DNA of 64,000 bases from Trypanosoma brucei (GCA_000002445.1 CH464491.1:1120001-1184000); one strand, 5' to 3'; positions 3,129 to 64,000 are shown, numbered from the stretch's first letter. Made by a program: numbers and translations. Notes: generated from the letters alone by a model not told the origin.

Positions 3129-3181
3129 CGTATCTGTGTCTCTGTGTGTATCTTTGTATCTATCCTTAGAATAGTTCATCG

Positions 3182-38027: not shown

Positions 38028-38041
38028 GGGAGCCGAAGGTT

Positions 38042-43621: not shown

Positions 43622-43625
<4 letters not shown>

Positions 43626-43657
<32 letters not shown>
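43626..43657. repeat. (TA)16 microsatellite
   Basis: The longest perfect TA run in the window. Confidence 0.9.
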
Positions 43658-43660
<3 letters not shown>

Positions 43661-46177: not shown

Positions 46178-47451
46178 ATAAAAGGTTGGGATTGTTTCGG
46201 TGTGTTAACAATCAGTTGAACACTAGACTGCAAAAAAAAAAAAAAGAAGAGCTTGAAAGATATGGAGGGATGGAGAGAGAAAAATGGGGCTGGAAACGGG
46301 GGAATGAAAATGCAGATCATGGTGTGATGACACAAGAGAGGAAAAAAAAAAAGAAGAAAGTGGAAAAGGGCGACGCTGTGCGAAACCCAGGTGTTAGGGT
46401 TGGTTAACTGTTGGAACTTTCACAAGTTTTTGAAAATGAGGAAAGGTGTAAATTGTAACTCCTTCCGTCTCCGTATGGTTCCCACTAGTGTGCATATGTA
46501 TACGCCTTTGTGGTGCGTCTCTCTGTCATGAACCGAAAGTAAAAGGGGGGTGAGGCCGTGTTGGAGTTATTCACTTTCAGTGTGTGCTCTAACTTAAATA
46601 TATAACGCCTCTTTTTCTCATCATTCTTCCCCTTTCCACACATGTACGGATGAGTGAAAAAAAAAAGGGGGAGTTTGTTTGTTTGCCTTTGTGAGTGGTG
46701 ACCAGAGGGGACAGTTAGAAACCCTGCGCAGTGTTGCTTTCAGTTCCTCTTTGCATCTCCTCCATCTCTCCACTGTGATTATGTTTCAAGGAGGCATTCT
46801 GTTTGGAGGGAACAAAACCGATGGTTTCATTTTCAATATGGGATGAAACGTTTAAACAATTATGAAACCTCAAAGATCGAAAGTATATACATACACACCT
46901 TTGCGCTTGGGGTGGAAAGATAGAAGGAAATGAAGGCCGTGCATTGAGCCGTTGTGTCACCGCCTAACTTTCCCCCCTCACTCCAATATTTGAGGTGGTG
47001 TAAATGACTTCTCCCTTCTTCCCTCATCCATGGTGATGTGTTTTACCATACTTCAGCCGTGTATTTTTGTTTTGTTTTACCTCAATTAATTCTCAAAACC
47101 AAAAGAAGAAAAGAAAGACGAGACGGTGAAAAGGCGACCGAGACACGTGTGTTCAGTTAACGCATTGGCTTCTCACGATATGAAGAATCGTTTACGTTCT
47201 CTTAGATAAGGCTTCACGTACACGCAGAACGCCACCATCGAAGAAAAGGCGGTAAAAAAAAAAAGAGAAGGGAAGAGAAGAGAAATTGGGAGAAACTACT
47301 CTACCACTTTGTTCGTGAATCGATTGCTCAGCTTCTTTATCACTACTTTTCTTCCCTCCTTTATTTCGCCATTTACTCATGTACACTCTTTTTTTACAGC
47401 CACCGCTGAAGGAAAGGATAGAGGGGCAGAGCTGGCGAGTCATATAGTTAG

Positions 47452-49116
47452 TTGCCAAACAAATATAACATGACCGTCTGCTTCAAATGCAAGTCAGCGT
47501 CAGCGGTGGTATGTAGCCGTGACGGGCCCACTAAAAGTTACTGTTCTTCATGCTTCACAGATTTTTGCACCCGCCTCACGCGGGACTCGCTTTTCCGCAA
47601 TTGCGGACTACCGTGCGATGAGCCGGTGGTAGTTGCCGTATCGGGAGGTTTTAGTTCCATGATGCTATTGCACCAACTCGGGATACTGCGGACGCAAAAT
47701 CGCATAAGACAAGGTGAAGGGCGTGTGACATTTGAACTCATTCCGCTGCACTTACGTGAAGAAGAACTTATGGCGCCAACCCAGCAGGGCCCCGTTAATG
47801 CGTTTGCGGATGAAGGTGATGATGCCCGTCAGGAAAACGGGAGGTATTGTCATACATTTTCTGAGGTGAAGGAACAGTTTGAAGAACTGGAGTGCCTGGT
47901 GCGCACGCAATGCGAACAGTGGGAATTTGCAAGCACCCCGCTATTCACAGCGGATGAAGTACAGATCGTGCAGTACAGTGATTATTTATCGCCTGATGAA
48001 CTACGTGGACTCCGGGAGGTGTTGCACCACCCGCGTATTCCGCTTTCGCACCGTGAACTTCTCTACAGGCGATTGCGTGGACGCATTCTGACCGTTGCAG
48101 CGGTTGAAAGTATTAACAAATGGAGGGACATCCGTCAAGTTTCGGGTCAGTGGTATCACATGTTGACGGGCGAGAACGCTCTCCGTTGTTGTGTGGCAAC
48201 GCTACGAGAGGTAATGAGCAATAGCAACAGCAATCGCATTGTCCATTTTGGTGGACATCGTGGTTTTCTGGGACAGTGCATGGTGATGCGGCCGTTACGA
48301 AGCCTTATTCCTCGCGAAGCTGTCATATACTGCCGCCTGCACGGCATCCAAGCAGGGTTTACACCTTCACTCAGTACCTTGACGGCTCTGCGCTCCTTCG
48401 ATCGTACCCTCGAAGTTTTTATTAATATCATGCTGGGTTCCTACCGCACATCCATTTTCAATGTACTGAACACGGTGACGAGACTAGACGTGGGTGCCGA
48501 TGCTGAAATACTGAATGTTGATTTGCGCACTGAACAAAGTGGGGGACCGTGTGGGGAAAATACAAAACAGGCAAAGCGTGTTATTGCCGGAAAAGCAGCA
48601 CAACACCACCGCGAGCAGTTAAAGATGAGGCGACCCATTTGTTGCCTATGGGAAGGCGCCGACATCAAAGGAGAGGAGGAGGCAGAGGAAAATGGCGAAG
48701 AAGGGAAATTGAGTAACCAGTCGCGGCGATTATGTCTTGTTTGTGGATGTTTCATCATTTGTGCGGATGAACACCCGGTAACGTTGCGATTTGGTCGGCG
48801 ATTTGTGTGTGAAAGCTGTCTCCAATTAATGAATGATTTCGCCAACACACGCCGCGCCGAAGCGGGAACTGAGAGTGAGCGAATATTAACGGATCCTGCC
48901 GTTCACTCCGCTGTTACCACCGGTCCCGGAACTATGCTTAGTGCTTTCGAGTCACTTACCACCACAATGCAAATGTTGGTTGCAGTAACAGGTAATTCGC
49001 CTTCTCTCGCTGGGAATGACGGTACTGGTGAGGATCGATGCGTGCGACGGCGCCTCAGTGCTCACGGCGCAGAAGAGTACATCTTACAGACAGATGATGG
49101 TGAGAAAGACAGTTAA
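47452..49116 (+). CDS. Cytoplasmic tRNA 2-thiolation protein 2 (CTU2/NCS2)-like
   Basis: An N-terminal CxxC...CxxC (CFKCKSASAVVCSRDGPTKSYCSSCF) is followed by a degenerate PP-loop, VVVAVSGGFSSMMLLHQL, as in CTU2 (CVKCK...CRDCF...LAWSGGPSSS). A C-terminal CLVCGC...CESC Cys cluster is present. The likely start is 47470. Confidence 0.55.
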   Translation: MPNKYNMTVCFKCKSASAVVCSRDGPTKSYCSSCFTDFCTRLTRDSLFRNCGLPCDEPVVVAVSGGFSSMMLLHQLGILRTQNRIRQGEGRVTFELIPLHLREEELMAPTQQGPVNAFADEGDDARQENGRYCHTFSEVKEQFEELECLVRTQCEQWEFASTPLFTADEVQIVQYSDYLSPDELRGLREVLHHPRIPLSHRELLYRRLRGRILTVAAVESINKWRDIRQVSGQWYHMLTGENALRCCVATLREVMSNSNSNRIVHFGGHRGFLGQCMVMRPLRSLIPREAVIYCRLHGIQAGFTPSLSTLTALRSFDRTLEVFINIMLGSYRTSIFNVLNTVTRLDVGADAEILNVDLRTEQSGGPCGENTKQAKRVIAGKAAQHHREQLKMRRPICCLWEGADIKGEEEAEENGEEGKLSNQSRRLCLVCGCFIICADEHPVTLRFGRRFVCESCLQLMNDFANTRRAEAGTESERILTDPAVHSAVTTGPGTMLSAFESLTTTMQMLVAVTGNSPSLAGNDGTGEDRCVRRRLSAHGAEEYILQTDDGEKDS

Positions 49117-52100
49117 CTGCTTCTTCAGAGTTGTAGGCTTTTGAACATGAGTTTCTATGGATATGTCGATCCTAAATTTTCGTTGTGTTTCCGCATGGTC
49201 GGCAATCGGTTGGATATGGTGCCGCACGACGTTAACTTTCCTTCCTCAGTTGATCTTGTAACAATGCGGGCCCAGATTTATGCATATACACGCGAGTGCT
49301 GAATGCATGATCCTTTCTAATACTTATCCATCCTCCTTCACTATTATCATAAGCTTTCTCGTGAAGATGTTAGAGGCGTCAGCCATATCTCTAAGAGTTG
49401 AGAGGCGAGACCTTTTAGTGCTCATCGTGCGTGCTAAAGAGGCAAGTTAGACGGCAACTCACAAGTGCGATGGGGGCTCATTCTTTTGGATTTGAGTCCG
49501 TACGAGCCTCAAAGAGTGGAACAATGGAATGTGCGAGAGGATGCCAATAAATAAGATTGAAAGGCACCATTCCGTCAACATCCTTAAGAGTTTGAACAGG
49601 TGGAGGTTCGACAAAATGTACGATCTGGTGAACGACCGAACCCGGCAGGTTTTGTGATACCCCTCGGAGGTGTGCGTGTGTCTGTGGCTTAACATATCGA
49701 AAAAAAAATGAAGCAGCGTTGCTTAAGTGGGTACTTATCGCGATTGTGCGGGAAGTAGGGAGAGGGGATATCTGTTTCAAAAAGAAATTATGAGGTAACG
49801 GCGGAAGGTTTCCCTCTTTACCTTTAGTAGATTGTTTTAAGCATTTATGTGAAACCTTTGTGTCGAACGCGTCCCGTATTTAATTAAGTGTGTGTTGGTG
49901 TGAAGAGGGGGAAACGCCGGGTTGTTTTGAGGAAAATCAGCAGTGAACAGTTGTGCGGTGGGGGGAGGGGGATAAAAGGGAAGTTAATCAAGCGGTTTTG
50001 CTCATCCCGTCTGTAGAACTGCCGCTCTTTTCACTCAACAGCGTTCCAGTTGTTGTGCGATCGGCATAAGTCTCACGAATCAAAAAATATACATATCGCA
50101 TGTAAAACTCGACGTATGAATTGATTCGCAAAAAGAAAGTATTCCACACTAATTATTTTGGGGACATGGGAGGTGAGAAAAGGGAGGGAATAAAATGGGC
50201 CTCAGGAAATGAGGATAATGTCTCGGTATATATACGACAGTGACGAAGGATAAGTTTTGCACTTTTGATAAAGGAAGTCCAAAGAGAAGGAACAAAAAGG
50301 TAGGAAGATACGCTAAAGACATCAACAGGAACCATTTGCCAAATGGATGTGAACGAACTTAAGGACCTAAGCCAGGACAATAAATATTAACTATTAAAAA
50401 AACATCAATAAGAGTGGCGCGACTTACATAAAAATAAACCTAACAGGATAATACAGATACCTTAACCATCAGCGGAAGATGGGCTTATGCGAGGAAATTG
50501 GTGAGGTTAGCTAAGTAGCTTGATATTGTCTCTCGATGGCACGTAAGCTTATTGGGTTAAACAACAAATTGTGGATTAACACCATACGCACCGGTTGTTC
50601 CTCAATATTCCAAGTGGTAGGAAACGTTGTCGTTACATCAAGAAGACAGTTTTCCAGTTACATTTGGTACCAGCGGTGCCATCGTTCTGAGATGGTGCTA
50701 CTGAAAAGACATTTTCACTTGTAGTATAATAACTCTGGTCTCAGCAACAGTGGGGTCGTTACATATTTGCTTTCTTTTTGCTTTTGCCATAATCCTAACA
50801 AACAGCACATGATGCATCCAATATTATAATTTTATTATGTTTACATGATTCTCAATACTTTTTACTTGGTTGTGGAAGATGTGGAGAAGGATGTGCACCT
50901 ATCGTGGAAATTAAATGCTGTGTCGCTGAAAAGGCGTTCAACGTATCCATTTTCCCTGTCGGAACTACCTCCTCCTCCCGCTGTTGTAGCAGCGAACACC
51001 AAATACGTGTCTTGTTACATTGTTTGGGACGTGGTCCTGGTGTGTGGAATGCGCCAGTGGTGTTCACTCATCAACCAAAAGATTAGTGTCGTTGTCTGTA
51101 TCCATAGGAAGCAAGTGTGTTGCGGAAGTTCCGTTTTAAGGGATCCTTGAGTGGATGAAGGTGTGGAAGAAATGGAAAGTGCGCACTGCGTGGCTGTTTC
51201 GGTGGCGCTGGACATAATGCAGGTTAGTGTCCCTCCAAATCTTACACAGTGCTCATCAGAATCAGAAAATAAGGAGGTTTTCAGTGCACCGTTCCCCGTG
51301 GTAAATTTAGTAAATTCATGACTTCCGGAAATTTATATTAAAAAATACGGAACCGCTGCCATCTTCAAAGATGGGAGCAACAAGTGGCGGCACCTGTGGA
51401 CCCGTAGGTGTGGGAGGAAATGATGCAGAGTGATAATTCCAGCGCGTGCAAGGATTTGAGAACCTTAGTTGGCGCACGGTATTTTACAAGGTGCTGACCA
51501 TTTGGGGAACGAGCACAAAAGAAGTTGAATTGAGATAAGGGGAAGAGACACAAAGAGTGGTGAGGTGTCAGTTTGCTACAGATGTTAAGAAAAAGTATAG
51601 AAGAGATGAATGAATAGGTATAAAAAAATAGGAGGCTTTAAGCTTCTCGAAAGACCTTGAAGTTCCGCCAAACAGGGGCAACTTCATGAAAGCGCCATAC
51701 GGCTGGGAAGCGGACACTGGAGAGCCCCTGTTGTGGCTCATAACGCAACGCGCATTGTGAAGGCGTGCTATCTGGGCCGCCAAACACGAAGTTGGGGAGT
51801 CCTCCAGAAGAGATTCCATATTCTCATGCAGGTAGCGCAACAAGCGGTAAAGAAAGGCAGTGCTCGGCTGCGTGGTCTGTGGCGAAGATAAAAAATACCA
51901 GAAGGTGGGATCCACAGACCGATGCAGCGGGAACGTTTGGTACTGCCAAACGAAATGGGCAAAATATACGGCAGCCGTGCAAGGTCAGCGTCCAGTGGAA
52001 CCCATAGGGCCACGTAGAGCTCTCTCGACTGTTGCCCAGACGCCAGAAACCTCCTTGGAGCAGACACACTTGCTTAGAGGAGGGCAGCATGCTGACCAGT

Positions 52101-53266
52101 CAGGTGCTGGCGGGGATCACAATAAGAAAGGAAATCACGCACGCGCAGTATATGGTTCCGAACCCGCAAAAAAAAAAAGTCTAGCAGCACCGTGGTTAGC
52201 GAACTTGGTAAAAATAACATCGAAAAAATGCAGAACTTAAAAAAAAAAGCGAACCACGAGTTAAACGGGTAGAGGTGAAGACGTTGTACGACGACACTGA
52301 AATGTTTCTTCGAGGGAGCTCGAGTAAACCAAGCGCTCTATATCGGATGGTAGCGGACAACCACCGAAAGTTAGAAATAAACTCAATACCTCACTGGAAA
52401 CCGAATCAACTGTCTATAGAATAAATGGTGAATCAGCGTCTCCAAGGAATGATGCAATCAAAAGCATTAGTAGAAGCGCTAGCAGTAGTCCCTCTTTATT
52501 GAAACGTGAGGATTATAAGCACGGGCAAACGTTCGCCGACCCGAGAGCTGAAACAAAATGCGAGTGTACAGATGGTAGATGCATTGTTTCTACGGGTAGA
52601 GCGGCTATTCCAATTTCAATGCGGCGATCAGCCGTCTCAGCGGACACGAAAACCCTTCAGGTGGCGTTGAATGTATCTTTAGCTCTTGCATAAGTAATTC
52701 AAGACAAGCCCCTGACTGGTTTCGAAATCGATTGAACTGGTAATATGTTTTATATTATTATTATTATTTCTTTTTGATCAAGCATCAACGAGTGTCACAT
52801 TTTTCAAATTCATTCAACGGATCTGTTGCGGTGAGTCAGAACGATTGTTCAGAACTTTCTCTGCTGTTCTCATGGTACCTATGCAGCAGCGCAAGCACAG
52901 AGTTTGTTTTAGTATTTTTTCGGAGAAGCATTCAATACGCAGGGGGTTAGTTTGCTGTTATGGCGGGAGAATGGGTCCGCTTTTTTGTAAGGGTGCCCCA
53001 GAGGGACACAAGGGTTGTCTTCCTTACATGGGGGCAGAAGTCACTGTCGTGAGAAAGCGACTCACTATTCGACTGGGGAAAAAACGGCAGTGATGTGGGC
53101 TGGGTAGTAACGGTAGTTTCTCATTAGAATAATCATGGTTGTGGGCGTGCCTTGCACACTTAACGAAATATTAATGTTGTGTAGTAAGTGTAGAGGGTTT
53201 GTTGAACCCGAAACAGCGGGTCTGTTTGAGTGATAGTCATTTGCGTTACATGCCAATCGTACTCAC
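49117..53266. other. 4.1-kb non-coding spacer inside the polycistron (contains repeat copy 1)
   Basis: No ORF longer than 130 aa on either strand. Too long for an ordinary trypanosomatid intergenic region. Confidence 0.5.
50815..51292. repeat. 478-bp direct repeat, copy 1
   Basis: Base-by-base identical to 58614-59091 except for 6 mismatches. Contains the ORFs 50845-51150 (+) and 50852-51067 (-), which recur in copy 2. Confidence 0.9.
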
Positions 53267-54379
53267 ATGATATGTCGTTTCCCTGTTGATATAAGTAAGG
53301 TGTGGGGCAACAAACGTTTTCAAGGGCAGTTATATCTTAATATGACTTCCGCAGGTCGTCCGCAGGTAACTCTTGACGAAAATTACACTGGAGAGGATGT
53401 GGGCAATTTGAGCCGCAGTGCCACTTTGGAATGCCTCACAGCCAAAAAGTGCGGAAAATTGAAGAGCGTGAAATTCGAAAAGGCAAAGAACCTCGTTTGC
53501 TTGCACGCCGAGAGTTGTGGAAAACTGAAAGTTATCGACGTGAGCTCTTGCTGCAAATTAGAGTCACTAACGGTCACGAAATGCAAAAATCTTAAAGAAG
53601 TGCATGGTCTTCCAGACGCATGTGAGTTGCTTGCTTTGAATTTATCTGGATGTGGAAAACTGGAACAGGTAGAGGGGTTATGTGCAACAAATATTAAGGT
53701 AAAGAAACTTAACTTGAGTGGCTGTAAGCTGTTGGAGCCTCTGGGAGTTTTGGGATGCTGCAAGAATGTGACAGAGTTGGATCTAAGTGGATGCAAAAAT
53801 ATCAACCAGAGCTCCATGGAGATAGCATGCAAAGAGCTCAACGGTCTGGAGACTCTGAAACTGAGCGGAGTTCCTACAGTATCAGATAATTGGGTTTGGT
53901 CCCTTGGGGTAAGCAACAGGTCTAACGCCAACCTGCTGTATTTGGACCTTTCTCGGTGCTTGGATATAGAAAATGCGGGGCCGTTGTCGATGATACGCTC
54001 CTTAAAGGAATTGTCTCTTGACGGCTGCACCAGCATTTCTAAGGGTTTGGAAGCGGTATGCGGTCTCCCCAACTTGAAGAAACTGTTATTGAGCAAAACG
54101 AAGGTAACAGATGAATGCCTCGAGAATATCAAAGGGAACAGAAACCTAGTGGTGCTTGGTTGCAGCGGGTGTCTAGGCATCAGCAGCATTTCGTGTATTG
54201 GGGAGGTAAAATCACTTGAAGAATTGTCCTTGGAGGGCTGCACTAACATTAAAAAAGGACTGGACATACTGCCTCGCCTTCCGAAACTTCAAAAATTGTG
54301 GATATGTGGCTTAAATGTTCCTGAAACAATAAAGCAAAAGCTAAAAACCCAGGGTGTCAAGACGAACCCACTCCGGTAG
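53267..54379 (+). CDS. ESAG8-like leucine-rich repeat protein (LRRP), lacking the N-terminal RING finger
   Basis: Tandem 23-25-aa LRRs in ESAG8 style: LNLSGCKLLEPLGVLGCCKNVTELDLSGCKNI, LEELSLEGCTNIKKGLDIL and LDLSRCLDIENAGPLSMIRSLKELSLDGC. The C-terminus resembles the ESAG8 tail. Confidence 0.65.
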   Translation: MICRFPVDISKVWGNKRFQGQLYLNMTSAGRPQVTLDENYTGEDVGNLSRSATLECLTAKKCGKLKSVKFEKAKNLVCLHAESCGKLKVIDVSSCCKLESLTVTKCKNLKEVHGLPDACELLALNLSGCGKLEQVEGLCATNIKVKKLNLSGCKLLEPLGVLGCCKNVTELDLSGCKNINQSSMEIACKELNGLETLKLSGVPTVSDNWVWSLGVSNRSNANLLYLDLSRCLDIENAGPLSMIRSLKELSLDGCTSISKGLEAVCGLPNLKKLLLSKTKVTDECLENIKGNRNLVVLGCSGCLGISSISCIGEVKSLEELSLEGCTNIKKGLDILPRLPKLQKLWICGLNVPETIKQKLKTQGVKTNPLR

Positions 54380-55212
54380 CCATACTGAAACATCATAATG
54401 AGACTTCATCTTCCCTCCCGCAACAACTTCCAGCAAGTGAGGTACATATACATAACATGTGTATATAGACGTATGTCCCCTAAAGGAAAAAAAAATGTGA
54501 TGCCTTTCAGAAGGCGCCGCGGCTATTTCTTTTTTCTCTTTATCTGGAGGCCAGCAGTGGTCTCCGTTATAGGTGAGTGGCACCTTCCCAATTGAACATT
54601 TATCCCGTAAAAAAAAAAAACAGTACTCTCACATACTGAAGTACATTCCAGTTCAGCGTATAAAGCTGTGGCACTACATGGCTTTCACTTTTAACGGAAA
54701 GCATTACTTACACTCTTATGTTTTGTTGGTTTTGGGTGTTGGAAAAAAACATGAACGTCGGGAAAGGATGATACATCGGTAATGGTTGTTAGTGTGAATG
54801 TGATTGTGTATTTCTCCCCACTTGTGCACTTGTTGCCACTACGGGGAGAAAATAATTTTGCTATGGGGGTATATAATACATACTTCGAACTAGTAAGTGG
54901 CGTGCGCTGCCCCTTGATTGATGCAGCTCTGTGAAGAGTGCTAACAGATACCTGACTTGACACTCCGTTTTGGGGTTCGGTATGTTGTACTTAAAGGTTT
55001 ACTGGAGGTTGGTGACTAAATAATTTATGCTTGGCTTCCTGTGTACGCACAGAAAGAACTAAACCTTTGTGGATGTGAATAATTGAAATGTTGGTGAAAT
55101 GCCACGTGCACTGTTCTGGAATGTAAATTATCGCGACGAGTGTGTTGAAGAAGTAACAGAGAAATTCTCTATCGTGATGATCTCCCTTCATTAGAGTTTT
55201 AGGTGAAAGAAA

Positions 55213-55887
55213 ATGCTGTCGGAAATGTTGTTGCTTTTGTGTATATTGTCTGTCGCATCGGTGCTCAGTTTTGAAGACATGGTAACGATGACAGTTTCGT
55301 GGCCTCACAACGCAAGTTGTAAGGGAATACAAGGTGACCCGCGTGTTTGTCGGGCCCTAGCGGTTCTTGTGAAAGACGCATTTTCGAGTCGCTGCAAAAC
55401 AGTTACAGGGGACGTACGCGCAACTACCGCCGAAGCGTCTTGTCACTTGCAGTTTAAAATTAATGAAGAAACTCCTCTTTATTACCTGTGTAATGGCGAT
55501 ACCGTGAGGGAGATTATGCAGAAGCAAGAGGACCTGCACCTACCTGCGCATACCAATGGAGAGCCCGACTGTAGCAAACTCCCTGCGCGTATTGAGCTCA
55601 GTTCCGACAAGGACAGCAAAAACGCTGCTACCGTGTCAGCACCAGCAAATACTGAGAAGGAATCCAAAGGGAAACCTGAAGAGAGTCCCGCGACCGAAAC
55701 ATCGGATAACGTGACCGAAAAAACTGTCCCAGAGAAGCCGACCATTAAGGGGCCACAGACTAAAAATGAAAAAACAGTGGATGTAAAGTCTACCGAGCCG
55801 CAGAGTAAACAAAACAGTGGATCCATGCGGTCCTTATTCGGTGACCGTTGTTTTTTTATTCCTCTTTTATACAGCATGTTACTTTGA
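55213..55887 (+). CDS. Small predicted surface protein with N-terminal signal peptide and C-terminal GPI-anchor-like hydrophobic tail
   Basis: The N-terminus is MLSEMLLLLCILSVASVLS. There are 6 Cys in the N-half and an acidic, K/T/E-rich spacer. The tail, GSMRSLFGDRCFFIPLLYSMLL, ends the protein. Confidence 0.5.
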   Translation: MLSEMLLLLCILSVASVLSFEDMVTMTVSWPHNASCKGIQGDPRVCRALAVLVKDAFSSRCKTVTGDVRATTAEASCHLQFKINEETPLYYLCNGDTVREIMQKQEDLHLPAHTNGEPDCSKLPARIELSSDKDSKNAATVSAPANTEKESKGKPEESPATETSDNVTEKTVPEKPTIKGPQTKNEKTVDVKSTEPQSKQNSGSMRSLFGDRCFFIPLLYSMLL

Positions 55888-56904
55888 ATGAACACTGGGC
55901 TCTAAAACCCATGACTCTTTGCTTTATTCCGAAGTCATACTTTATTAAGGCTTATACGCGATAACATCTTTTTGCTTGTACGTCCATTTACCCTCCTGTA
56001 ATACGCACGCACATATATCCCCTCATAATATTCGTAGAATCATGCAAACACAAACTGCTCATGAGATAACCGATACTATTTCCGTAGAGAGTATGTGTTG
56101 GTGTTGGCATAACTGTCTTGTCACATTGAGCGTATTTTGTGTGGAGTAATATTCGCTGACTGTTAAGAAGTTTAGGATAATAGGTTCCACTTCGTAGTGG
56201 CTTGCGTGTAGCGTGCATATCTTTGTGGAAAGGAAAACTAATCAATTGTTTGTTTGACACTTATTATAGTTTGTGGTAAACGAAAGCAGTGAATATTCCC
56301 ACTGCAAAGGGAGGGAATTCCTTATGTGTGTGAGTTTGAGGAAGCTTTTCCATCTCGTAGAGAGGTAATTCTCAACGAGCTAGGAAGTTGTCGAGTATGC
56401 GTAACCCAGGGCGAAGCAGTTTGGGGAGACCACATACGTGCGCACGTATCTGTACTTTCACGTATGTATATCCCATTTGTACCTATAGCATTCTATAAGC
56501 GTTTCTCGCCATTTAATTAAACAGTGTGCGCAGGCTACAACGACAACAAAAAAGGTTTCTGTTAAAATATATGGTGTCTCCACATTAAAACATGAGAAAA
56601 TGAGTTTACTTTCGGCTGGGGCTTCTCACATAGACACCGGGACTGCGTTTAACAGAGTTTTGTCGGGAACTCCTTGGGATGTAATTGGTAAAAGCTATAA
56701 CTCTATTTCGTTTTTTGTTGCATCGGTTCCCTATTTCCGGGACCCGGTTACACTTATCCAATATGTTGTTGGAATGTTAATGCTATATATTTGTGGTGTC
56801 AGGAAATGTTAATAATAGAACGTGCAGATTGTGCTACCTTTATAGTTCCTTTTCTGTGTATCTTCAAGAGGTGAATATATTGAGCAAAGTGGAAAGCAGG
56901 AAAA

Positions 56905-57975
56905 ATGTGTGGTATTAAATATTGCGTCGTTTTGTTTGCCTTGGTGCTCCGAACAAGTATCTCCGGGGAGGGAAAAATTGTCAATGAAGATGAATTTGGA
57001 GCCCTATGTGGTATGATAAATCTGGCTCAGGCTGGATTGAGGAAGATAAAGGAGGTCCGAGAAACCATTAAAGGTACGATAAGAATTGGATCAAGATGCC
57101 TCGAGCTTACTGGGGGTAGGGTATTGGACACGATTTGTGAGGGAGAAAATAGTAGAAACTGCGAAAATCGCAGAACGTTTTGGAAGAAAGCGGAAAGTTC
57201 ATCGAACAAAAAAATAGCCGGAGACGGTCTTCTAGATCGACAAACGGAGGAAATGATTAGGAAGATAGGAGGTGAAGCCGCAGACCTATATGAGGATGTC
57301 ACGAGGAAGCAATGGGTACCATTTGCAAATGCACTGGAAGAAAAAATCAACGAAGCCCTCTATGGTGTGCCTTGGAGACCAGAAGAGATTAAGGAAAACA
57401 CTACAGACAGAAAGCAACTATGTCAGCAGGAGATTTCACGGAACGCGGTGCATTACCCACCAGCGTCGTTGAGCAGGGATTTATTATGTGTCTGCGCGAT
57501 GGACCTGGAGTCAGTGAGGAAGCACAGACTTTGCTGCGAATTTTGCGGTTACGAAGATAATCGGGAGGTTTGGAAACCAAACAAGGATTCGTGGGAAAGA
57601 TGGAACTTTCTTCGAGCACACTGTGCATTTCTTGGAGAACCTAAGGAAGATTTCGAGAAACTTGCGAGCACGTTCAGGCGCCTGATAAATCAGCAACACA
57701 ACACGCCTATCGGGGTTATGTACATCTTGGGATACCAGAAGAGAAACAGCTTCTGGTCCCTTGGGCTCTCGTCAAGGGGACCTATGGGTCCGGGTGTGCA
57801 TTATGTTTTAATGGGAAAAGAGAAAACGACTGACGATATACCATGGTTGAAACTGTTGCGAGAGGTGACAATGGAGATGGGACAACCGGCTCAAGACAAT
57901 GTCCAAGAAGGTGAGTTCACAGAGGCCCTTGAGAAGTTGGAACAAGACCTCGAAAAATTGATTCAGACAAAGTGA
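56905..57975 (+). CDS. Cys-rich predicted secreted protein (signal peptide, no TM or GPI tail); possibly ESAG-like
   Basis: The N-terminus, MCGIKYCVVLFALVLRTSISGEG, is a signal peptide. There are about 14 Cys, including CEGENSRNC and CCEFC, and a hydrophilic C-terminus (EKLIQTK). Confidence 0.5.
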   Translation: MCGIKYCVVLFALVLRTSISGEGKIVNEDEFGALCGMINLAQAGLRKIKEVRETIKGTIRIGSRCLELTGGRVLDTICEGENSRNCENRRTFWKKAESSSNKKIAGDGLLDRQTEEMIRKIGGEAADLYEDVTRKQWVPFANALEEKINEALYGVPWRPEEIKENTTDRKQLCQQEISRNAVHYPPASLSRDLLCVCAMDLESVRKHRLCCEFCGYEDNREVWKPNKDSWERWNFLRAHCAFLGEPKEDFEKLASTFRRLINQQHNTPIGVMYILGYQKRNSFWSLGLSSRGPMGPGVHYVLMGKEKTTDDIPWLKLLREVTMEMGQPAQDNVQEGEFTEALEKLEQDLEKLIQTK

Positions 57976-58613
57976 GTTGGAGGTGGTTAGGAATCCTCCT
58001 ACGTATATATCCATTCCAATCAACCGGAATTTGGCAGGGGAAAATAGGTAACGAATAAGAGCAGTAAAGTAACGTGAGGAAAATGGTTTCAGAAAAAATA
58101 TTTTTTTAAAGGTCATGTCGGAAAGGGGGGATATATTGCCATAGAGAGATATTCATCCAACATGGCGGGGTAAGTCTCCGCCAGTAAAATTACTGTGATA
58201 TTTCTTAATTAAAGCGCATTGGGAGTGTTTCAATAATATGCGGTTGAGTTACCAGATTCTATACTCATATCCATTGTGCCTTCGCTTCGTAGGAAGGAGT
58301 TAATCTTCGAGAAACAATTCGTATCCATGGATCCCATCATATGGGAGGATAACTATGGAGTCGTCTTTTTTCAAGGGCATCCTGCTGCCGCAGCAACAGC
58401 AGCAGGAGGGCGGTGGAAAGTACAACTTTACTTAGGGACGCCTCCACTGCATGAATACCAGCGGAGCAAATAGTATGACCAACCATACTAGCATGTATAC
58501 TGTTTCAATGTCAGAATAAAAGGGGCACTAGCTACGGTAAAGCTCATTTCCCCTCTTTGCTTTAACTCTACCCCCAAAGGCGTGCGTACGATGCGCATTT
58601 ATCGTTTTGTCTT

Positions 58614-59091
58614 CATCCAATATTATAATTTTATTATGTTTACATGATTTTCAATACTTTTTACTTGGTTGTGGAAGATGTGGAGGAGGATGTGCACCTA
58701 TCGTGGAAATTAAATGCTGTGTCGCTGAAAAGGCGTTCAACGTATCCATTTTCCCTGTCGGAACTACCTCCTCCTCCCGCTGTTGTAGCAGCGAACACCA
58801 AATACGTGTCTTGTTACATTGTTTGGGACGTGGTCCTGGTGTGTGGAATGCGCCAGTGGTGTTCACTCATCAACCAAAAGATTAGTGTCGTTGTCTGTAT
58901 CCATAGGAAGCAAGTGTGTTGCGGAAGTTCCGTTTTAAGGGATCCTTGAGTGGATGAAGGTGTGGAAGAAATGGAAAGTGCGCACTGTGTGGCTGTTTCG
59001 GTGGCGCCGGACATAATGCAGGTTAGTGTCCCTCCAAATCTTACACAGTGCTCATCAGAACCAGAAAATAAGGAGGTTTTCATTGCACCGT
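58614..59091. repeat. 478-bp direct repeat, copy 2
   Basis: Constant offset of 7799 bp from copy 1. Flanks diverge immediately outside both ends. Confidence 0.9.
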
Positions 59092-60158
59092 GCGGTGTTG
59101 CATCTTCAATACCCGCTTCATATTGGGATACATTCAATAAGATACGTCGGGCCACCATTTTACACTTTGTGCTATAGCATACGTGTGTGCAACCAACTTC
59201 GTTGTTCAGTCGAATACGTGGACCCATATATCCCCTCGATAGAAAACACGCGAAGTAGTGTTTACGGCATTTAATGATTTCACTTGACCTAACTTCTTGT
59301 AGGATGGTATGCGCGTGTGGTCACGCTGCTGCTTTTCTTTCGTCTCGGAGGCGGTGTGGGAGTCAGGTGACAGGTTGTTGCGGTATACTAGCGTTGCGAT
59401 ATGCATGGTACTGGTTTTATCACAGTTGTGGTAGAGACGCTTTTCTTTGGCGCCGTGGTACGCAAAATAAAAAAGAAAAAAACATTAATATAACCTGATG
59501 CGAATGTCTCGGGAAGTTAAGGAACCGTGCGGAAGCGGCGGGGGTGTGGAGCCCAGACTCAAGGGTTGCGTGCACCTGGGCGATTTAACATTTTTTTTTT
59601 TACAAAACTGCTGATGGTCAAGGGAGATTGTAATTGCTGTTAACTCTATGGGAAGGGAGCCGACGGACCAGACGCTAAGTGGTAGGGGATCAATTCGTGA
59701 CATTGATTATGATATATGAACGCTTTACACAAAAGATGCAAAGGGTGTAATTATATCCCCCTTGGTTGGAAGTGCTTCATTCACTTGTATCCGCTCTCAG
59801 AAGCCGGTTACACCATCGGGGGTGTGTGCATACTGGGGCACATGCCTCCATTTTGTTCTGTTTGTTGCGACCACCGTCAGCGTAGTAATACATATCACAT
59901 CTTTTGTTTCTTCGCTGCTGTTGCCAAGAGGATATCGGAGGGAAAGTGTGCCACAGAGCACGCGAACTGCCTGCCGTATGTAGTTTTACGTGTGGCGGAA
60001 TGCTGGGAGAGAGGATACGATGCGCCGAAAAGGGAAAAGTACGCACACTGTGGTGCCCTGAAAGGCTTGAGAGAAGTGGCTGTTACTGTTTATTAGTGAG
60101 GCATCATGCTCTCTGTTGTTGTTCGCTTTGAGGATTTGCTTGCGTCCGCTCTCTGGTT

Positions 60159-61466
60159 TTGACGTTATTTTTTTTTTCTTACGATCAGGATGTCTGTAAC
60201 AGCAAGGGCAGCAAAGGAAGAGAAGTTTTAGCGATGCTAATGAACACCCCGCTAAAGAGGGTAGAAGACATACCACCACTTCTTCGTGAACGGCTTACGA
60301 AAGCAGAGGAGAGCGGGTGGAAAATTCTTGACCTCTCGGGTTGTAAAGAAACTTTGGATGTCACGGCGCTCACTGAGGTCGGCATGCTGGAACAACTATC
60401 CCTGGAGGGTTGCACAAACTTGAGAAGAGGGCTGCGGGAAATATGCAACGGGGAAAGAACGCGCAATCTGAGGACGCTGCACTTAAGCAACCTACCCATG
60501 CTTGATGACACATGCATTAAGATATTGGGGGGAACACACCTACGGCTCGAACTGTTCACCTGCGCACACTGTAAGAACGTAACGAACGTTAGGCCCCTAG
60601 CGGAAATCAAGGCCCTGAAGAGCCTTTCGCTCGGACACTGCGTGAATATCAAGCATGGTCTGAAGGAAATTTGCGGAGGTCTGACGAATATGAGGGCTCT
60701 CTGGATCAACCACATACCGGCTGTCGACGATGCGTGCATTGCGGAGCTCGGCGCAAAAGGCGACGGTTACGAAGGCCATCTGATTTGGTTAATTTGCGAT
60801 GGATGTCTTGGGATAACGGATGTTACGGCCATTTCGGAGATCAAGACATTAAAGAGACTTTCGCTGACGGGATGCGAGAACATAACGAAGGGGCTAGAGG
60901 AGATGTGCGCCAGTGAGAAACTGCAGGACCTGCAAGACCTATGGGTGAATAACGTGAAGGCGTTCAGTGATAAGTGCCTTTTGAATCTGGAGGAAAGTCA
61001 CAGGAAGGGCGGATGGAAACTGCAGGTGCTCAGCACCAAAGACTGCTGCAGCATAACAGACGTGTCACCCCTGGGGAAGCTGGTAACGTTGAGGGTGCTA
61101 TGCCTTGACGGGTGCGTGAACATTAAACAAGGTCTGGATCATGTCATACTGTCGCTGGTCGATTTGAGGGAAGCGTACTTGGGAGGCATTGGCATAACCG
61201 ATAGGCATATTGAGCTGCTTGGTCGCCACAAAAAAATTGAACGATTACACCTCCCTTTTTCAGGGAACATTACAGATATTACTCCCTTAACGAATGTCTG
61301 GACACTGGAGGCTTTGTGCTTGTGCGGGTGTCTAAAGGCTACAAGGGGATTTGAAAAGTTTTCTACACTCTTCAGACTCAAAAAGTTGTGTGTGTGTGGT
61401 GTTTACGTCGATGCGGACACAGTCATGGCCCTAAAGGGTAAAGGAGTGGCTGTGAAGCTGTGGTAG
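60159..61466 (+). CDS. ESAG8-like leucine-rich repeat protein (LRRP), second copy
   Basis: LRRs include LEQLSLEGCTNLRRGLREI, LKSLSLGHCVNIKHGLKEICGG, LKRLSLTGCENITKGLEEMC and LRVLCLDGCVNIKQGLDH. The likely start is MLMNTP at about 60233, after a polyY tract at 60165-60180. Confidence 0.65.
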   Translation: MTLFFFSYDQDVCNSKGSKGREVLAMLMNTPLKRVEDIPPLLRERLTKAEESGWKILDLSGCKETLDVTALTEVGMLEQLSLEGCTNLRRGLREICNGERTRNLRTLHLSNLPMLDDTCIKILGGTHLRLELFTCAHCKNVTNVRPLAEIKALKSLSLGHCVNIKHGLKEICGGLTNMRALWINHIPAVDDACIAELGAKGDGYEGHLIWLICDGCLGITDVTAISEIKTLKRLSLTGCENITKGLEEMCASEKLQDLQDLWVNNVKAFSDKCLLNLEESHRKGGWKLQVLSTKDCCSITDVSPLGKLVTLRVLCLDGCVNIKQGLDHVILSLVDLREAYLGGIGITDRHIELLGRHKKIERLHLPFSGNITDITPLTNVWTLEALCLCGCLKATRGFEKFSTLFRLKKLCVCGVYVDADTVMALKGKGVAVKLW

Positions 61467-63243
61467 TGCAACGCTACGACTCACGACGTGCTGCCAAACA
61501 GGCGCAGCGCCATGTTCGCTGTGATTGTCGTCGCAATGGATGAAATTGGGAAGGTAAAAGAGCAACTGGTGATGACCATTTTAGCGCGGTTGTGCTTGGC
61601 AGTATTTCTCCCTATAAATCCCTTCTTTTTGATTTTAGAGCTAAAGGTAGTGGCGGTGGTATTCGCATATACTTCTGTGTAGTGGCATTCGGGTTGTATG
61701 TGTTTTCCGAAGACTTGCCACACATACATATATATATATATAGAAACAGTGGGGGTTGGAAACCACGTGTCGCAAGCGGGTGCGTCACTGACAACATATA
61801 ACACCTCATGAGGCGGCGAGCATTTGGCTTCGTCCGGGGGCTCAACATTCGGGTTAGAAACGGTATTACATGCAAGAAAATGTGGGTAGCCAAAGGAGGA
61901 AATACGCCGGCATGCTTTCTGTCCACGATGTCGTTTTTAAGCCCCGTGATCATGGCCTCTTCAGGTCCGGCAGCCTGATAAGGATAAGCTTTGGAAGGCT
62001 TCAGCTGTCGGTTTGCGGCCCGCGCACCACAATTCCCCCCCCGCCCGCCTCCATGGCAGGGGCTGTTTGAGCGAGTAAGCAGAGCGCTCTCAGCACCCCA
62101 ATCGCAAATGGCTGTGGGTTTCCTTTCGTTTCTCTGCCGCGCCCCGTACGTAGTGTCTGGTCAAGCTGTTTTCCAAAGGCACCGCTCTTAATGGCACCGA
62201 GTATGCGCGGCACTCCAGGAGTGTGTTCCACTTGATTCCTCCGTTACTGCGGTCGTATCATTGTAATAACGGCGCTACCAAAAAAACGACAGCGCCTGTT
62301 GTGCACTGTAAGGCCAACCGCGCCTACCATACGTCAAAGGTTTCGAAGTTGGGTTGCTTAGGCATGGTTTTGCTTTGTTCCGCATTTTCCTCACCCTTTC
62401 ATCACTCATTCCACCCGGGTTTCTCCCGACAATTCGCCTCAAGTTGAGCTTCGCTGCGCTGTGGTCCATTTGCTGCTAGACAAATGTTCCGCCCGCAAAC
62501 GACCATCCAACACTTGCCGGCGCGTGCCCATCTTTCTAAACGCGGGACGCCATACAACAACGTGGCGCCTTGCATCCATTCCGGCGGCTGGTGGTGGTCC
62601 GTATCCCTCCAGTCCCCTCAAGTGTACCAAATTTAAGTGCATTGGTTACAAGTCAGCGTTACTCAAGTTTCCAAGTGGTTGTCAAGGCCATTTCCCCCGC
62701 ACCCACGATGGATCAACCAGTTTCAGCCACTTATGGCTGCCAGTTGTGCGACTTAACTGCTCCGCACCCCTTCCCGCTTTGCGGCGGTGTGAGTGATGAC
62801 GGAAGCGCCACAACACATTTAGTGGAAGGCGGCCTCGCGCTCGCCACTGTCGATTGAGTTGCCGGCATGGTGGCGTTAGGGCGGAAATGGGCCCGGGACC
62901 GCCCCCTCCCTCATGCCCTTGGGCGTGAAGACCCCTAATGTATGATTTGCTAAAGGACGTAAAGGGAAGAGAAGGGAAGAATCACCTCTTCGCAGCATCG
63001 GATAAGTTGGTGAAATCCACTGGACGCAAGGCGCCACATACCGCCGGTGCTCCTGCGCATAATGGAAAAGTGAAAAAAAAGATACCCATTTCTGACCCTC
63101 CCTAGAGTGCACACGCTTTTCCCCCGGAAAGCGCTATGGTGAAGGAAACGCGATTAACCGGGCATCACTCCCAGCACCCAGAAAGCATGTGTTAATAATA
63201 TGTGGCTCTGTAAGGCCCATCTCCGCGCGCTTCCGCACTCGCT
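61467..63243. other. Convergent strand-switch region, GC-rich and ORF-poor
   Basis: The last plus-strand gene ends at 61466 and a minus-strand gene ends at 63244. Composition shifts to GC-rich (a run of 8 C, 62033-62040). Only short overlapping ORFs are present. Confidence 0.6.
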
Positions 63244-64000
63244 TCACCTCCTCTCCAGTTGCTTCCACATGGATGATCTTTCACCCGTTCGGCCGGTGGG
63301 GGCCTCGTGGCAAAAGCGCTGAGCGCGGTTCATCATGTCTTCGGCAGCGTCATCGGGGAGTGTTCCGAGGGCCCGCAGAGCCCCTTCCAGTTCTCCGGCA
63401 TAACCATCTGGCGGAACGTCAGGGACCGCTTGTGAGGAGTCATCCGGTCCCCCTTCACAGAACTCCTCCAAGCAAATGTCCAGAAGTTCGTTTGCATTGG
63501 CACCCTCGGATGTTGTGGTTACGGATGCAGTCTCGTTAAAAATGCCCGGCTCACCCTCTGGCCGAGGTAAGGACTGGTATTCTTGCTGAAGTTCAAGGAG
63601 AGTAGTGGGAAGTGTTCCATCAATTATTGCGGCAAGCTGCTCCGCGGTGCTTTGGTCAAGTGAAGTGAATTGCTGGACGGCCGCGCTGGCAACCAGGCCG
63701 GCAAGCCGAGTCAAACTCTCAGCCCCCCGCGTAAACCACGTGGAGGCGCGATCCATGGCGATACCACCTGCGAAAACAAGAGCCGTTCGGACGCCTTGGG
63801 CCCACGCACTTCCGGACACATGTGGATTGACGATCGCTCCTATAACCGTTTCATGAGCATAGATAACAAACCTTCGCAACTCAGCCGCTACATCGATATT
63901 AGGTCGACGTTCCTGTTCAAAAGCCCGCACTAGCTCCAGATTTTCCGCAACGAGACGAGCAAGCCTGTCAGCCTCCTGCTCAATGCGTCGCTGGCGCTCC
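63244..64000 (-). CDS. Hypothetical Ala-rich acidic protein, 3' part; N-terminus lies beyond the window
   Basis: The minus-strand frame stays open from 64000 down to the stop at 63244. The GTG or M at 63930 in the ORF track is not the real start. It is the only minus-strand gene and is GC-rich. Confidence 0.5.
   Translation of the reverse strand, partial: ERQRRIEQEADRLARLVAENLELVRAFEQERRPNIDVAAELRRFVIYAHETVIGAIVNPHVSGSAWAQGVRTALVFAGGIAMDRASTWFTRGAESLTRLAGLVASAAVQQFTSLDQSTAEQLAAIIDGTLPTTLLELQQEYQSLPRPEGEPGIFNETASVTTTSEGANANELLDICLEEFCEGGPDDSSQAVPDVPPDGYAGELEGALRALGTLPDDAAEDMMNRAQRFCHEAPTGRTGERSSMWKQLERR

What the first reader, a model, noticed from the sequence alone, without database searches (positions are those of the whole stretch)
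49117..61466. Accessory island of ESAG-like genes at the distal end of a housekeeping polycistron
The first 49 kb carry conserved-function genes (TRM1, M16-like, CTU2-like, LYR and others). The last about 12 kb of the same transcription unit instead carry two RING-less ESAG8-type LRR proteins, a small signal-peptide plus GPI-tail protein, and a Cys-rich secreted protein. The spacers there are unusually long. A 478-bp repeat pair is present, and a strand-switch region abuts the island. This architecture is typical of lineage-specific, rapidly evolving surface or secretome loci in African trypanosomes. The two small proteins have no motif I can assign, so they are candidates for undescribed stage-specific surface or secreted factors.
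Basis: partly seen in the sequence, partly recalled or inferred. Interest (0 to 1): 0.65.

Follow-up and report, generated by a model that had tools for sequence, protein, structure and literature searches.

The report
Strain-variable VSG-related gene island, T. brucei
This is an already annotated, Trypanosoma brucei-specific cluster of surface-protein-type genes at the end of a transcription unit on chromosome 11; its inner 7.8 kb is flanked by 478-bp direct repeats and is missing from T. b. gambiense, making it a clean example of a known kind of variable locus, not a new one.

Summary
The window is T. brucei brucei TREU927 chromosome 11, and all four ORFs are annotated genes: LRRP Tb11.02.1564, hypothetical Tb11.02.1565, "VSG-related" Tb11.02.1566 and LRRP Tb11.02.1580.

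The "Cys-rich protein with no motif" is a full b-type VSG N-terminal domain (Pfam VSG_B, 1.7e-69). It has no C-terminal domain and no hydrophobic tail. The small protein belongs to a family found only in the T. brucei group, with two chr 8 paralogues that also sit beside VSG-related genes.

The accessory reading is supported:
- In T. vivax and T. cruzi, CTU2 is followed on the same strand by kinase, phosphatase and C2 genes, so the island lies at an inversion breakpoint.
- T. b. gambiense DAL972 has one copy of the 478-bp repeat and lacks exactly the 7,799 bp carrying three of the genes.
- The two repeat copies evolve in concert within strains.
- The gambiense haplotype matches an island-bearing T. 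b. equiperdum haplotype, which points to deletion by repeat recombination.

Chromosome-internal VSG/ESAG islands at strand-switch regions, some unique to one subspecies, are already described (Jackson 2010, 2013). Interest is low. The untested novel idea is a receptor made of one GPI-anchored and one unanchored subunit.

The parts
47470..49116 (+). CTU2 (cytoplasmic tRNA 2-thiolation protein 2, EAN79372). This is the last gene that is syntenic with T. vivax and T. cruzi, so it marks the left boundary of the island.
   Evidence: Exact match. Orthologues at 51% (T. vivax) and 47% (T. cruzi) identity in collinear loci.
49117..61466 (+). The whole T. brucei-specific island between CTU2 and the convergent strand switch.
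   Evidence: No T. vivax or T. cruzi counterpart for any part of it. Gene content.
50815..51292 (+). 478-bp direct repeat, copy A.
   Evidence: 98.7% identical to copy B. It ends exactly where the T. b. gambiense alignment breaks.
51293..59091 (+). 7,799-bp cassette (unique part plus repeat copy B). Present in TREU927 and T. b. equiperdum GCA_003543875.1, absent from T. b. gambiense DAL972.
   Evidence: L001 1-13825 = window 37474-51292, and L001 13348-16453 = window 58614-61728, with one shared 478-bp copy. L005 is collinear through the whole region.
53267..54379 (+). LRRP Tb11.02.1564. A 370-aa leucine-rich repeat protein with no RING and no signal peptide-like segment. It is intact (99.7% nt identity) but not annotated in two T. 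equiperdum-type assemblies.
   Evidence: Reported 5.1-fold up in cultured bloodstream forms (PMC2771046) and detected only in bloodstream libraries (PMC2837033).
55213..55887 (+). Tb11.02.1565. A 224-aa protein with a hydrophobic N-terminus, a roughly 100-aa domain with 6 conserved Cys, a disordered Ser/Thr/Glu/Lys/Pro-rich stalk, and a GPI-signal-like hydrophobic C-terminus. It is a family found only in T. brucei-group trypanosomes.
   Evidence: Inter-strain mosaicism with the chr 8 paralogues.
56905..57975 (+). VSG-related (VR) gene Tb11.02.1566. A 356-aa protein with a signal peptide-like N-terminus and a complete b-type VSG N-terminal domain. It has no VSG C-terminal domain and no hydrophobic tail.
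   Evidence: Pfam VSG_B E = 1.7e-69 covering profile positions 1-352.. Reported 8-fold up in bloodstream forms (PMC2771046).
58614..59091 (+). 478-bp direct repeat, copy B.
   Evidence: Concerted evolution with copy A shown.
59716..60096 (+). 126-aa ORF, called as a gene in T. equiperdum OVI and probably the missing accession EAN79376. It is doubtful as a real gene.
   Evidence: The L006 gene at 16158-16538 is the counterpart. No Pfam match above threshold.
60234..61466 (+). LRRP Tb11.02.1580. A 410-aa protein, the last gene of the transcription unit. It is retained in T. b. gambiense, T. b. equiperdum and T. equiperdum OVI, and is only 31-35% identical to LRRP 1564.
   Evidence: Low inter-strain divergence.
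61467..63243 (.). Convergent strand-switch region. GC rises to 0.52-0.56 and GC skew changes sign.
   Evidence: No tRNA or Rfam hit.
63244..64000 (-). 3' end of the first gene of the opposing transcription unit (620-aa ubiquitin-domain protein). The genes beyond it are orthologues of T. vivax genes that lie on the same strand as CTU2.
   Evidence: the T. b. gambiense 213-aa and 641-aa minus-strand genes match the T. vivax 208-aa and 643-aa plus-strand genes.

Best explanation
The region is a chromosome-internal 'VSG/ESAG-type island' of T. brucei chromosome 11, which is a known class. A conserved housekeeping transcription unit ends at CTU2. In the T. brucei lineage an inversion breakpoint lies directly after CTU2, and the new transcription-unit end has been filled with T. 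brucei-specific genes. These are two RING-less LRR proteins that are probably intracellular, plus a two-gene module. The module consists of a small protein that is probably GPI-anchored and Cys-rich (Tb11.02.1565), followed by an anchorless b-type VSG N-terminal-domain protein (VR, Tb11.02.1566).

The inner 7.8 kb (LRRP 1564 plus the module) is bracketed by 478-bp direct repeats. The two copies are homogenised by gene conversion within strains, and recombination between them deletes the cassette. This most likely happened in the T. b. gambiense DAL972 lineage, on a haplotype like that of T. b. equiperdum. The module itself exchanges sequence patches with its chr 8 paralogues.

Shown here: gene identities, domain content, loss of synteny, the exact indel, concerted evolution of the repeats, and mosaicism. 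Inferred: the polarity of the indel (deletion), the GPI anchoring, and the function. I take the module proteins to be dispensable invariant surface or flagellar-pocket proteins of bloodstream forms, and I take mRNA levels to be set post-transcriptionally, possibly with attenuation near the termination site.
For: Identity and annotation. Domains: VSG_B 1.7e-69; LRR families only; paralogues.

Synteny break and inversion.

Indel with exact repeat boundaries. The island is present and collinear in T. b. equiperdum. T. equiperdum OVI has an assembly gap there, but the rest of the island is assembled.

Concerted evolution of the repeats: the A and B copies differ at 6 sites in TREU927 and at 2 sites in T. 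b. equiperdum, while orthologous copies differ at 8 and 14 sites. The DAL972 copy differs from the T. b. equiperdum A copy at only 2 sites. The flanks agree: CTU2 and LRRP1580 pS between T. b. equiperdum and gambiense is 0.004-0.005, against 0.017-0.023 between TREU927 and gambiense.

Age of the module: the chr 11 and chr 8 copies are only 47-54% identical. The module therefore predates the split of the strains, which makes its absence from DAL972 a loss.

Restriction to the T. brucei group: (a profile search of 1.84 billion representatives returned only the query's own cluster).

Mosaicism: the first 39 aa of VR1566 are identical to the chr 8 VR. Patchy sharing of stalk and tail residues is seen, and there are divergence peaks of 5.6-6.8% at 55501-56000 and 56501-57000 against a background mostly of 0-2.8%.

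Literature: VR genes lie at internal strand-switch regions (PMC2771046). Of 17 VSG/ESAG islands, 6 are unique to one subspecies (PMC2854126). T. brucei-specific GPI proteins at strand-switch regions are expressed in bloodstream forms (PMC3605285). The chr 8 VR+hypothetical tandem is absent from T. evansi STIB805 and DAL972 (PMC4288722). VR proteins as a family are enriched in surface preparations (PMC4587319). Genes 1564, 1566 and 1580 are 5.1-, 8.0- and 2.2-fold up in bloodstream forms (PMC2771046).
Against: The polarity of the indel is inferred, not observed. The same structure would arise if a circle carrying one repeat copy had integrated. The DAL972 absence rests on a single assembly; no reads were examined. 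T. congolense, the closest outgroup, could not be fetched, so the age of the inversion and of LRRP 1580 is unknown. The signal peptide and GPI anchor rest on hydropathy only. There is no protein-level evidence for these particular genes; the surface-proteome statement concerns the VR family as a whole. pN/pS of the small protein is 0.4-0.6, so it is elevated but does not demonstrate positive selection. Whether transcription runs continuously from CTU2 across the 4.1-kb spacer is untested.
Confidence: 0.85

Rival explanations
1. The cassette was inserted in the T. b. brucei / equiperdum lineage. One route would be homologous integration of an excised circle carrying one repeat copy. Under this reading the single-repeat T. 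b. gambiense state is ancestral.
For: The structure (insert flanked by direct repeats, empty site with one copy) is symmetrical for insertion and deletion. Against the TREU927 copies, the DAL972 copy looks A-like at all six diagnostic sites.
Against: The DAL972 repeat and both flanks are nearly identical to an island-bearing T. b. equiperdum haplotype. The module is 47-54% diverged from its only paralogues, so it is old. The island is present in four sampled genomes or strain data sets, although for the '1125.1421' VSG entry only the VR gene is evidenced. DAL972 also lacks the chr 8 copies (PMC4288722), which means repeated loss on that lineage.
Confidence: 0.1
2. The absence from DAL972 is an assembly artefact: the two 478-bp repeats were collapsed and the intervening reads were left unplaced.
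For: Repeat-flanked segments are a classic site of collapse. Jackson 2010 notes that many indels coincide with gaps (PMC2854126). T. equiperdum OVI shows an assembly gap at exactly this locus.
Against: No T. b. gambiense protein related to Tb11.02.1565 or Tb11.02.1566 appears among the hits, although DAL972 proteins are in the database. The DAL972 junction is gap-free.
Confidence: 0.07
3. The small ORF 55213-55887 is not a functional gene but a chance or decaying ORF, like the many 'hypothetical, unlikely' ORFs of the T. brucei annotation.
For: No Pfam match, no solved-structure sequence match and no fold relative. It is restricted to one species complex. The locus is dispensable in T. b. gambiense.
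Against: The ORF is intact in three assemblies and in two 50-54% diverged paralogues, with six invariant Cys and a conserved tail. AlphaFold gives a confident compact domain for residues 21-130 from only four sequences. pN/pS is below 1.
Confidence: 0.05

Closest known systems
Chromosome-internal VSG/ESAG 'islands' of T. brucei (Jackson et al. 2010, PMC2854126; location of VR genes at strand-switch regions as summarised in PMC2771046)
   Same: It lies in the chromosome core next to a strand-switch region and contains a VR gene plus ESAG8-related LRRP genes. It differs between T. b. brucei and T. b. gambiense. Where both have it, the genes are orthologous.
   Different: It is on the same strand as the upstream unit, whereas the paper says such islands are 'often on the opposing strand'. 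The exact boundaries, the 478-bp flanking repeats and their concerted evolution are not described in the texts I could read.
Tb927.8.7300-7330 tandem of two VR and two hypothetical genes on chromosome 8 (Carnes et al. 2015, PMC4288722)
   Same: It is the same two-gene module: the small protein is 50-54% identical and the VR 47% identical. The chr 8-type VR is likewise followed by minus-strand genes in L002. It is also absent from DAL972.
   Different: There is one module here instead of two, and it is accompanied by LRRPs. The sequences are diverged except for converted patches: the VR signal peptide and the stalk and tail of the small protein.
ESAG6/ESAG7 transferrin receptor genes
   Same: They form a tandem pair of one protein with a GPI signal and one without. 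Both pairs involve a protein of VSG ancestry and both are expressed in bloodstream forms.
   Different: ESAG6 and ESAG7 are close paralogues derived from a-type VSG. Here the anchored partner is a small protein unrelated to VSG, and the VSG-like partner is b-type. No interaction has been shown.
Fam1 (Tb927.6.1310 array) and Fam4-7 of the cell-surface phylome (Jackson et al. 2013, PMC3605285)
   Same: These are T. brucei-specific genes at strand-switch regions with copy number that varies between strains and a bloodstream-form expression bias. Fam1 is a b-type VSG N-terminal domain without the C-terminal domain.
   Different: Fam1 proteins carry a predicted GPI anchor; VR1566 does not. I could not check whether Tb11.02.1565 is listed in Fam4-7 because the supplementary table is not held.
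ESAG8
   Same: Both are built from leucine-rich repeats. Published phylogeny places ESAG8 within the LRRP family (PMC3605285).
   Different: There is no RING domain and the genes are not in an expression site. The published closest ESAG8 relatives are other genes (Tb927.1.3670 and Tb927.3.580).

Membership tests
VSG-related (VR) genes | Homology to the VSG N-terminal domain | tested here: met
   Pfam PF13206 VSG_B, E = 1.7e-69, protein residues 9-344 on profile positions 1-352 of 352. Annotated as VSG-related.
VSG-related (VR) genes | Chromosome-internal position at a strand-switch region, not in a telomeric expression site or a subtelomeric array | tested here: met
   Flanked by core housekeeping genes on one side and a convergent strand switch on the other. 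Definition taken from PMC2771046.
VSG-related (VR) genes | No upstream 70-bp repeats | tested here: inconclusive
   Tandem Repeats Finder found no array anywhere in 49000-64000. A single degenerate 70-bp unit was not searched for.
Canonical VSG | C-terminal domain and GPI-anchor signal | tested here: not met
   The protein ends 12 residues after the N-terminal domain. There is no Pfam C-terminal domain hit at E <= 1. Maximum hydropathy in the C-terminal region is -0.55.
Canonical VSG | Conserved 16-mer TGATATATTTTAACAC in the 3' UTR (the motif is from my own knowledge) | tested here: not met
   Only one match at 3 mismatches in the window. It is on the minus strand upstream of the gene and is at chance level: 43 of 100 shuffles had at least one match.
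ESAG8 | Leucine-rich repeats | tested here: met
   LRR_4 E = 1.3e-15 and 1.3e-12 for the two LRRPs.
ESAG8 | RING finger (and nuclear localisation signal), stated to be diagnostic in PMC3605285 | tested here: not met
   No RING or zinc-finger Pfam family at E <= 1 in either LRRP. The nuclear localisation signal was not tested.
Chromosome-internal VSG/ESAG island (Jackson 2010) | Non-telomeric cluster of VR, atypical VSG or ESAG-related genes that may differ between subspecies | tested here: met
   Gene content. Difference from DAL972.
ESAG6/7-type heterodimeric receptor with one GPI-anchored and one unanchored subunit | Tandem pair of one protein with and one without a GPI signal | tested here: inconclusive
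   Hydropathy shows a C-terminal hydrophobic tail in Tb11.02.1565 and none in Tb11.02.1566. The same holds for the chr 8 paralogues. No GPI predictor was available.
ESAG6/7-type heterodimeric receptor with one GPI-anchored and one unanchored subunit | The two subunits are paralogues of each other | tested here: not met
ESAG6/7-type heterodimeric receptor with one GPI-anchored and one unanchored subunit | Physical heterodimer that binds a host ligand | not testable with these tools
   Needs complex prediction or co-immunoprecipitation.
Fam4-7 (T. brucei-specific GPI glycoproteins at strand-switch regions) | Signal peptide, T. brucei-specific, adjacent to a strand-switch region | tested here: met
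   The description of the families is from PMC3605285.
Fam4-7 (T. brucei-specific GPI glycoproteins at strand-switch regions) | Listed as a member in the phylome tables | not testable with these tools
   The supplementary table is not held as text.

The most novel reading that the evidence does not exclude
The conserved two-gene module encodes the two subunits of a bloodstream-form surface receptor: a small Cys-rich protein carrying a GPI signal, followed by an anchorless b-type VSG N-terminal domain. The small protein would tether the VSG-like ligand-binding subunit to the membrane. This would be a second, independently evolved receptor of ESAG6/7 design, and its presence or absence across T. 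brucei subspecies (it is lost in T. b. gambiense and, for chr 8, in T. evansi) would affect host interaction. The 478-bp repeats would act as a built-in excision device.
Probability: 0.1. Interest if true: 0.6.

Novelty: already known. Interest (0 to 1): 0.2.

Why it matters
The locus gives a base-pair-resolved example of how T. brucei gains and loses surface-type genes in the chromosome core. The genes sit at a synteny breakpoint, are bracketed by recombining direct repeats, and are patched by ectopic gene conversion from a paralogous locus. It also flags a gene pair that no paper I could find has studied as a pair: Tb11.02.1565 with a VR gene, and likewise on chr 8. For genome annotation the lesson is smaller. 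Both LRRP 1564 and the module are real and intact in T. equiperdum-type assemblies where they are missing, split or unannotated. None of this changes current understanding of trypanosome biology.

Tried and rejected
- **AlphaFold model of VR1566.** Built from five sequences, it was poor (mean pLDDT 51), and the Foldseek PDB search on it gave only meaningless matches (best E = 0.68). The VSG assignment therefore rests on Pfam alone.
- **Sequence search of solved structures.** Nothing for VR1566 and only noise for Tb11.02.1565.
- **Profile search of the small-protein family** against 1.84 billion representatives. It returned only its own cluster.
- **Fetching more loci.** The chr 8 and chr 3 TREU927 loci and the T. 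congolense CTU2 locus all failed because those proteins are not in the gene-position index.
- **Degenerate copies in the spacers.** I looked for decayed LRRP, VR or small-protein copies, and for remnants of the T. vivax or T. cruzi downstream genes. There were none.
- **Tandem duplication of a repeat+LRRP unit.** Tested and rejected: the two LRRPs are only 31-35% identical and nothing but the 478 bp is shared.
- **RNA genes and repeats.** No tRNA, Rfam or tandem repeat hit.
- **Modern gene IDs.** My guess at the Tb927.11 IDs was wrong: Tb927.11.4700 is an aldo-keto reductase. Literature indexed only under the new IDs was therefore not searched.
- **Supplementary tables.** Those of the surface-proteome and phylome papers did not contain the genes or were not held.
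- **Diagnostic sites in the repeat.** My first reading suggested an unlikely crossover in the last 8 bp. It was superseded once the T. b. equiperdum copies showed concerted evolution.

Full report
**Identity of the window.** Exact-sequence look-up places the window on chromosome 11 of Trypanosoma brucei brucei TREU927.
- 47470-49116 is CTU2 (EAN79372).
- 53267-54379 is the leucine-rich repeat protein (LRRP) Tb11.02.1564.
- 55213-55887 is the hypothetical protein Tb11.02.1565.
- 56905-57975 is "variant surface glycoprotein (VSG)-related, putative" Tb11.02.1566.
- 60234-61466 is LRRP Tb11.02.1580. The mechanical ORF list starts this one at a TTG at 60159.

Every gene in the finding is therefore already annotated in the reference genome.

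**Check of the observation.**
- Both LRR proteins hit only LRR Pfam families and no RING domain. Neither has a hydrophobic N- or C-terminus.
- The 478-bp direct repeat is real: 50815-51292 and 58614-59091, 6 mismatches, 7,799 bp apart. It is the only long repeat in the window.
- Tb11.02.1565 has hydrophobic N- and C-termini. Tb11.02.1566 has only the N-terminal one.
- A convergent strand switch follows at about 61.5-63.2 kb. The next gene, a 620-aa ubiquitin-domain protein, is on the minus strand in the T. b. gambiense and T. b. equiperdum gene calls, and GC skew changes sign there.
- Only one of the four spacers (4.15 kb) is longer than any spacer in the upstream 49 kb, and a second (2.26 kb) is near the top of that range. 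The other two are ordinary.

**What the two "motif-less" proteins are.** Tb11.02.1566 matches the whole Pfam VSG_B model (E = 1.7e-69, residues 9-344 on profile positions 1-352). It is a complete b-type VSG N-terminal domain behind a signal peptide-like segment. It lacks three features of a canonical VSG:
- a C-terminal domain;
- a hydrophobic tail;
- the VSG 3'-UTR 16-mer (the motif is from my own knowledge).

It also has no upstream tandem repeats. This is the published definition of a VR gene (PMC2771046, which cites Marcello and Barry).

Tb11.02.1565 has no Pfam hit, no sequence match among solved structures and no fold relative. A four-sequence AlphaFold model gives a confident alpha/beta domain for residues 21-130 and a disordered stalk for 133-224. 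Its only relatives are Tb927.8.7330 (54%), Tb927.8.7310 (50%) and a T. equiperdum copy. A profile search of 1.84 billion representative proteins finds nothing else. The family shares six invariant Cys, a nearly invariant stalk and a GPI-signal-like tail.

**A conserved two-gene module.** The closest paralogue of VR1566 (47%) is also on chr 8. [quoted passage not shown] That tandem is absent from T. evansi STIB805 and from DAL972 (PMC4288722). So "small protein with a tail, then anchorless VR" is a repeated module.

The modules exchange sequence:
- The first 39 residues of VR1566 and the chr 8 VR are identical, although the rest of the two proteins is about 40% identical.
- Between TREU927 and T. 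b. equiperdum, stalk and tail residues of the small protein switch patchwise between chr 11-type and chr 8-type states.
- Nucleotide divergence between those two strains peaks at 6.8% and 5.6% in 55501-56000 and 56501-57000, against a background mostly of 0-2.8%.
- Inter-strain pS and pN of Tb11.02.1565 are 0.06-0.11 and 0.04-0.06, against at most 0.03 and 0.006 for CTU2 and LRRP 1580. pN/pS is 0.4-0.6, so positive selection is not shown.

A T. equiperdum OVI contig joins the chr 11-type small gene to the chr 8-type VR and then to chr 8-type downstream genes. This is either a true recombinant or a chimeric assembly across the shared patch.

**Is the island accessory?** Yes.
- In T. vivax and T. 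cruzi the upstream genes (LYR protein, the roughly 1,700-aa protein, the roughly 275-aa protein, CTU2) are collinear with the window.
- In those species CTU2 is followed on the same strand by a kinase (or a 265-aa gene), a dual-specificity phosphatase and a C2-domain protein.
- None of the four island proteins, and no remnant of those downstream genes, is found at the reciprocal loci.
- The T. vivax 643-aa and 208-aa genes lie further down the same strand. [quoted passage not shown]

The island therefore occupies an inversion breakpoint. T. congolense could not be examined.

**The strain-variable cassette.** In T. b. gambiense DAL972, CTU2 and the Tb11.02.1580 orthologue are neighbouring genes. 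The alignment shows L001 1-13825 = window 37474-51292 and L001 13348-16453 = window 58614-61728. DAL972 thus has one repeat copy and lacks exactly 7,799 bp, which carry LRRP 1564, Tb11.02.1565 and VR1566.

The other sampled genomes carry the island:
- T. b. equiperdum (GCA_003543875.1) has the whole island with both repeats.
- T. equiperdum OVI has a 10-N assembly gap over 50888-56985, but the remaining parts are present.
- A T. brucei VSG entry named "1125.1421" is 98% identical to VR1566. From its name it is probably from strain EATRO 1125, which is my inference.
- LRRP 1564 is intact (99.7% nt identity) though unannotated in both T. equiperdum-type assemblies.

**Polarity and mechanism of the indel.**
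- The two repeat copies differ at 6 sites in TREU927 but only 2 in T. b. equiperdum.
- Orthologous copies differ at 8 sites (A) and 14 sites (B) between those strains.
- The DAL972 copy differs from the T. b. equiperdum A copy at 2 sites.

The copies therefore evolve in concert, which means they recombine with each other. DAL972 carries a T. b. equiperdum-like haplotype, and the flanking genes confirm this. The module is 47-54% diverged from its paralogues, so it is far older than the split of the strains. DAL972 has also lost the chr 8 copies. Deletion by recombination between the direct repeats is therefore the most economical reading. Insertion of a circle through the repeat, or an assembly collapse, cannot be excluded without reads.

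**Function.** Published arrays report Tb11.02.1564, 1566 and 1580 as 5.1-, 8.0- and 2.2-fold higher in cultured bloodstream than procyclic forms (PMC2771046). Digital expression data detect 1564 only in bloodstream forms (PMC2837033). A surface-labelling proteome found VR proteins, as a family, enriched at the bloodstream-form surface (PMC4587319). Jackson et al. describe T. brucei-specific GPI proteins at strand-switch regions as expressed mainly in bloodstream forms (PMC3605285).

I therefore take the module to encode dispensable, invariant surface or flagellar-pocket proteins of bloodstream forms. I take the LRRPs to be intracellular LRR scaffolds. Position just upstream of a termination region may add base J/H3.V-dependent attenuation (general mechanism in PMC4721609). 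This is inference; nothing locus-specific was found.

**Comparison with what is known, and verdict.** Chromosome-internal VSG/ESAG islands are a described class. [quoted passage not shown] This locus belongs to that class and is fully annotated, so I rate it as already known and of low interest.

Details that I did not find in the texts available:
- the 478-bp flanking repeats and their concerted evolution;
- the exact deletion in DAL972;
- the position at an inversion breakpoint;
- the pairing of a tail-bearing small protein with an anchorless VR.

The last detail allows a speculative reading: a receptor of ESAG6/7 design with one anchored and one unanchored subunit. I give it about 10%.

Noticed in passing
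L002 (T. equiperdum OVI contig CZPT02000251.1) 1-6511: The contig joins chr 11-type sequence (window 51252-56235 at 98.6%) to a VR gene 99% identical to the chr 8 paralogue. Minus-strand RCC1, EMP24 and ERGIC genes follow. It is either a real chr 11/chr 8 recombinant or an assembly chimera across the shared patch at the 5' end of the VR gene.
   Followed up: partly
L006 (T. equiperdum OVI scaffold) 13418-13427: A run of 10 N replaces window 50888-56985, so the scaffold misrepresents the island. LRRP 1564 is also intact but unannotated in L005 and L002.
   Followed up: yes
window 53383-54267 (-) and 60185-60739 (-): Long antisense ORFs (294 and 184 aa) lie opposite both LRRP genes. They are most likely a by-product of LRR codon composition and not genes.
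   Followed up: no
window 50845-51150 and 58644-58949 (+): Each 478-bp repeat copy contains a 101-aa ORF with no Pfam match. What the repeat is, and whether further copies exist elsewhere in the T. brucei genome, could not be checked because no T. brucei genome collection is searchable.
   Followed up: partly
window 61728-61745 and 62035-62052: The strand-switch region contains a short (TA)n run and a C-rich run (ccccccccgcccgcc). GC rises to 0.52-0.56 towards the opposing unit. No tRNA or Rfam family was found there.
   Followed up: partly
window 3106-3168 and 43595-43657: A 63-nt inverted repeat pair, 75% complementary, with arms 40 kb apart. Probably chance or low complexity.
   Followed up: no
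L003 (T. vivax) 12275-13072 versus L004 (T. cruzi) 12103-13629: The gene directly after CTU2 is a 508-aa protein kinase in T. cruzi but a 265-aa gene with no Pfam hit in T. vivax. This position may be unstable in other trypanosomes as well.
   Followed up: no
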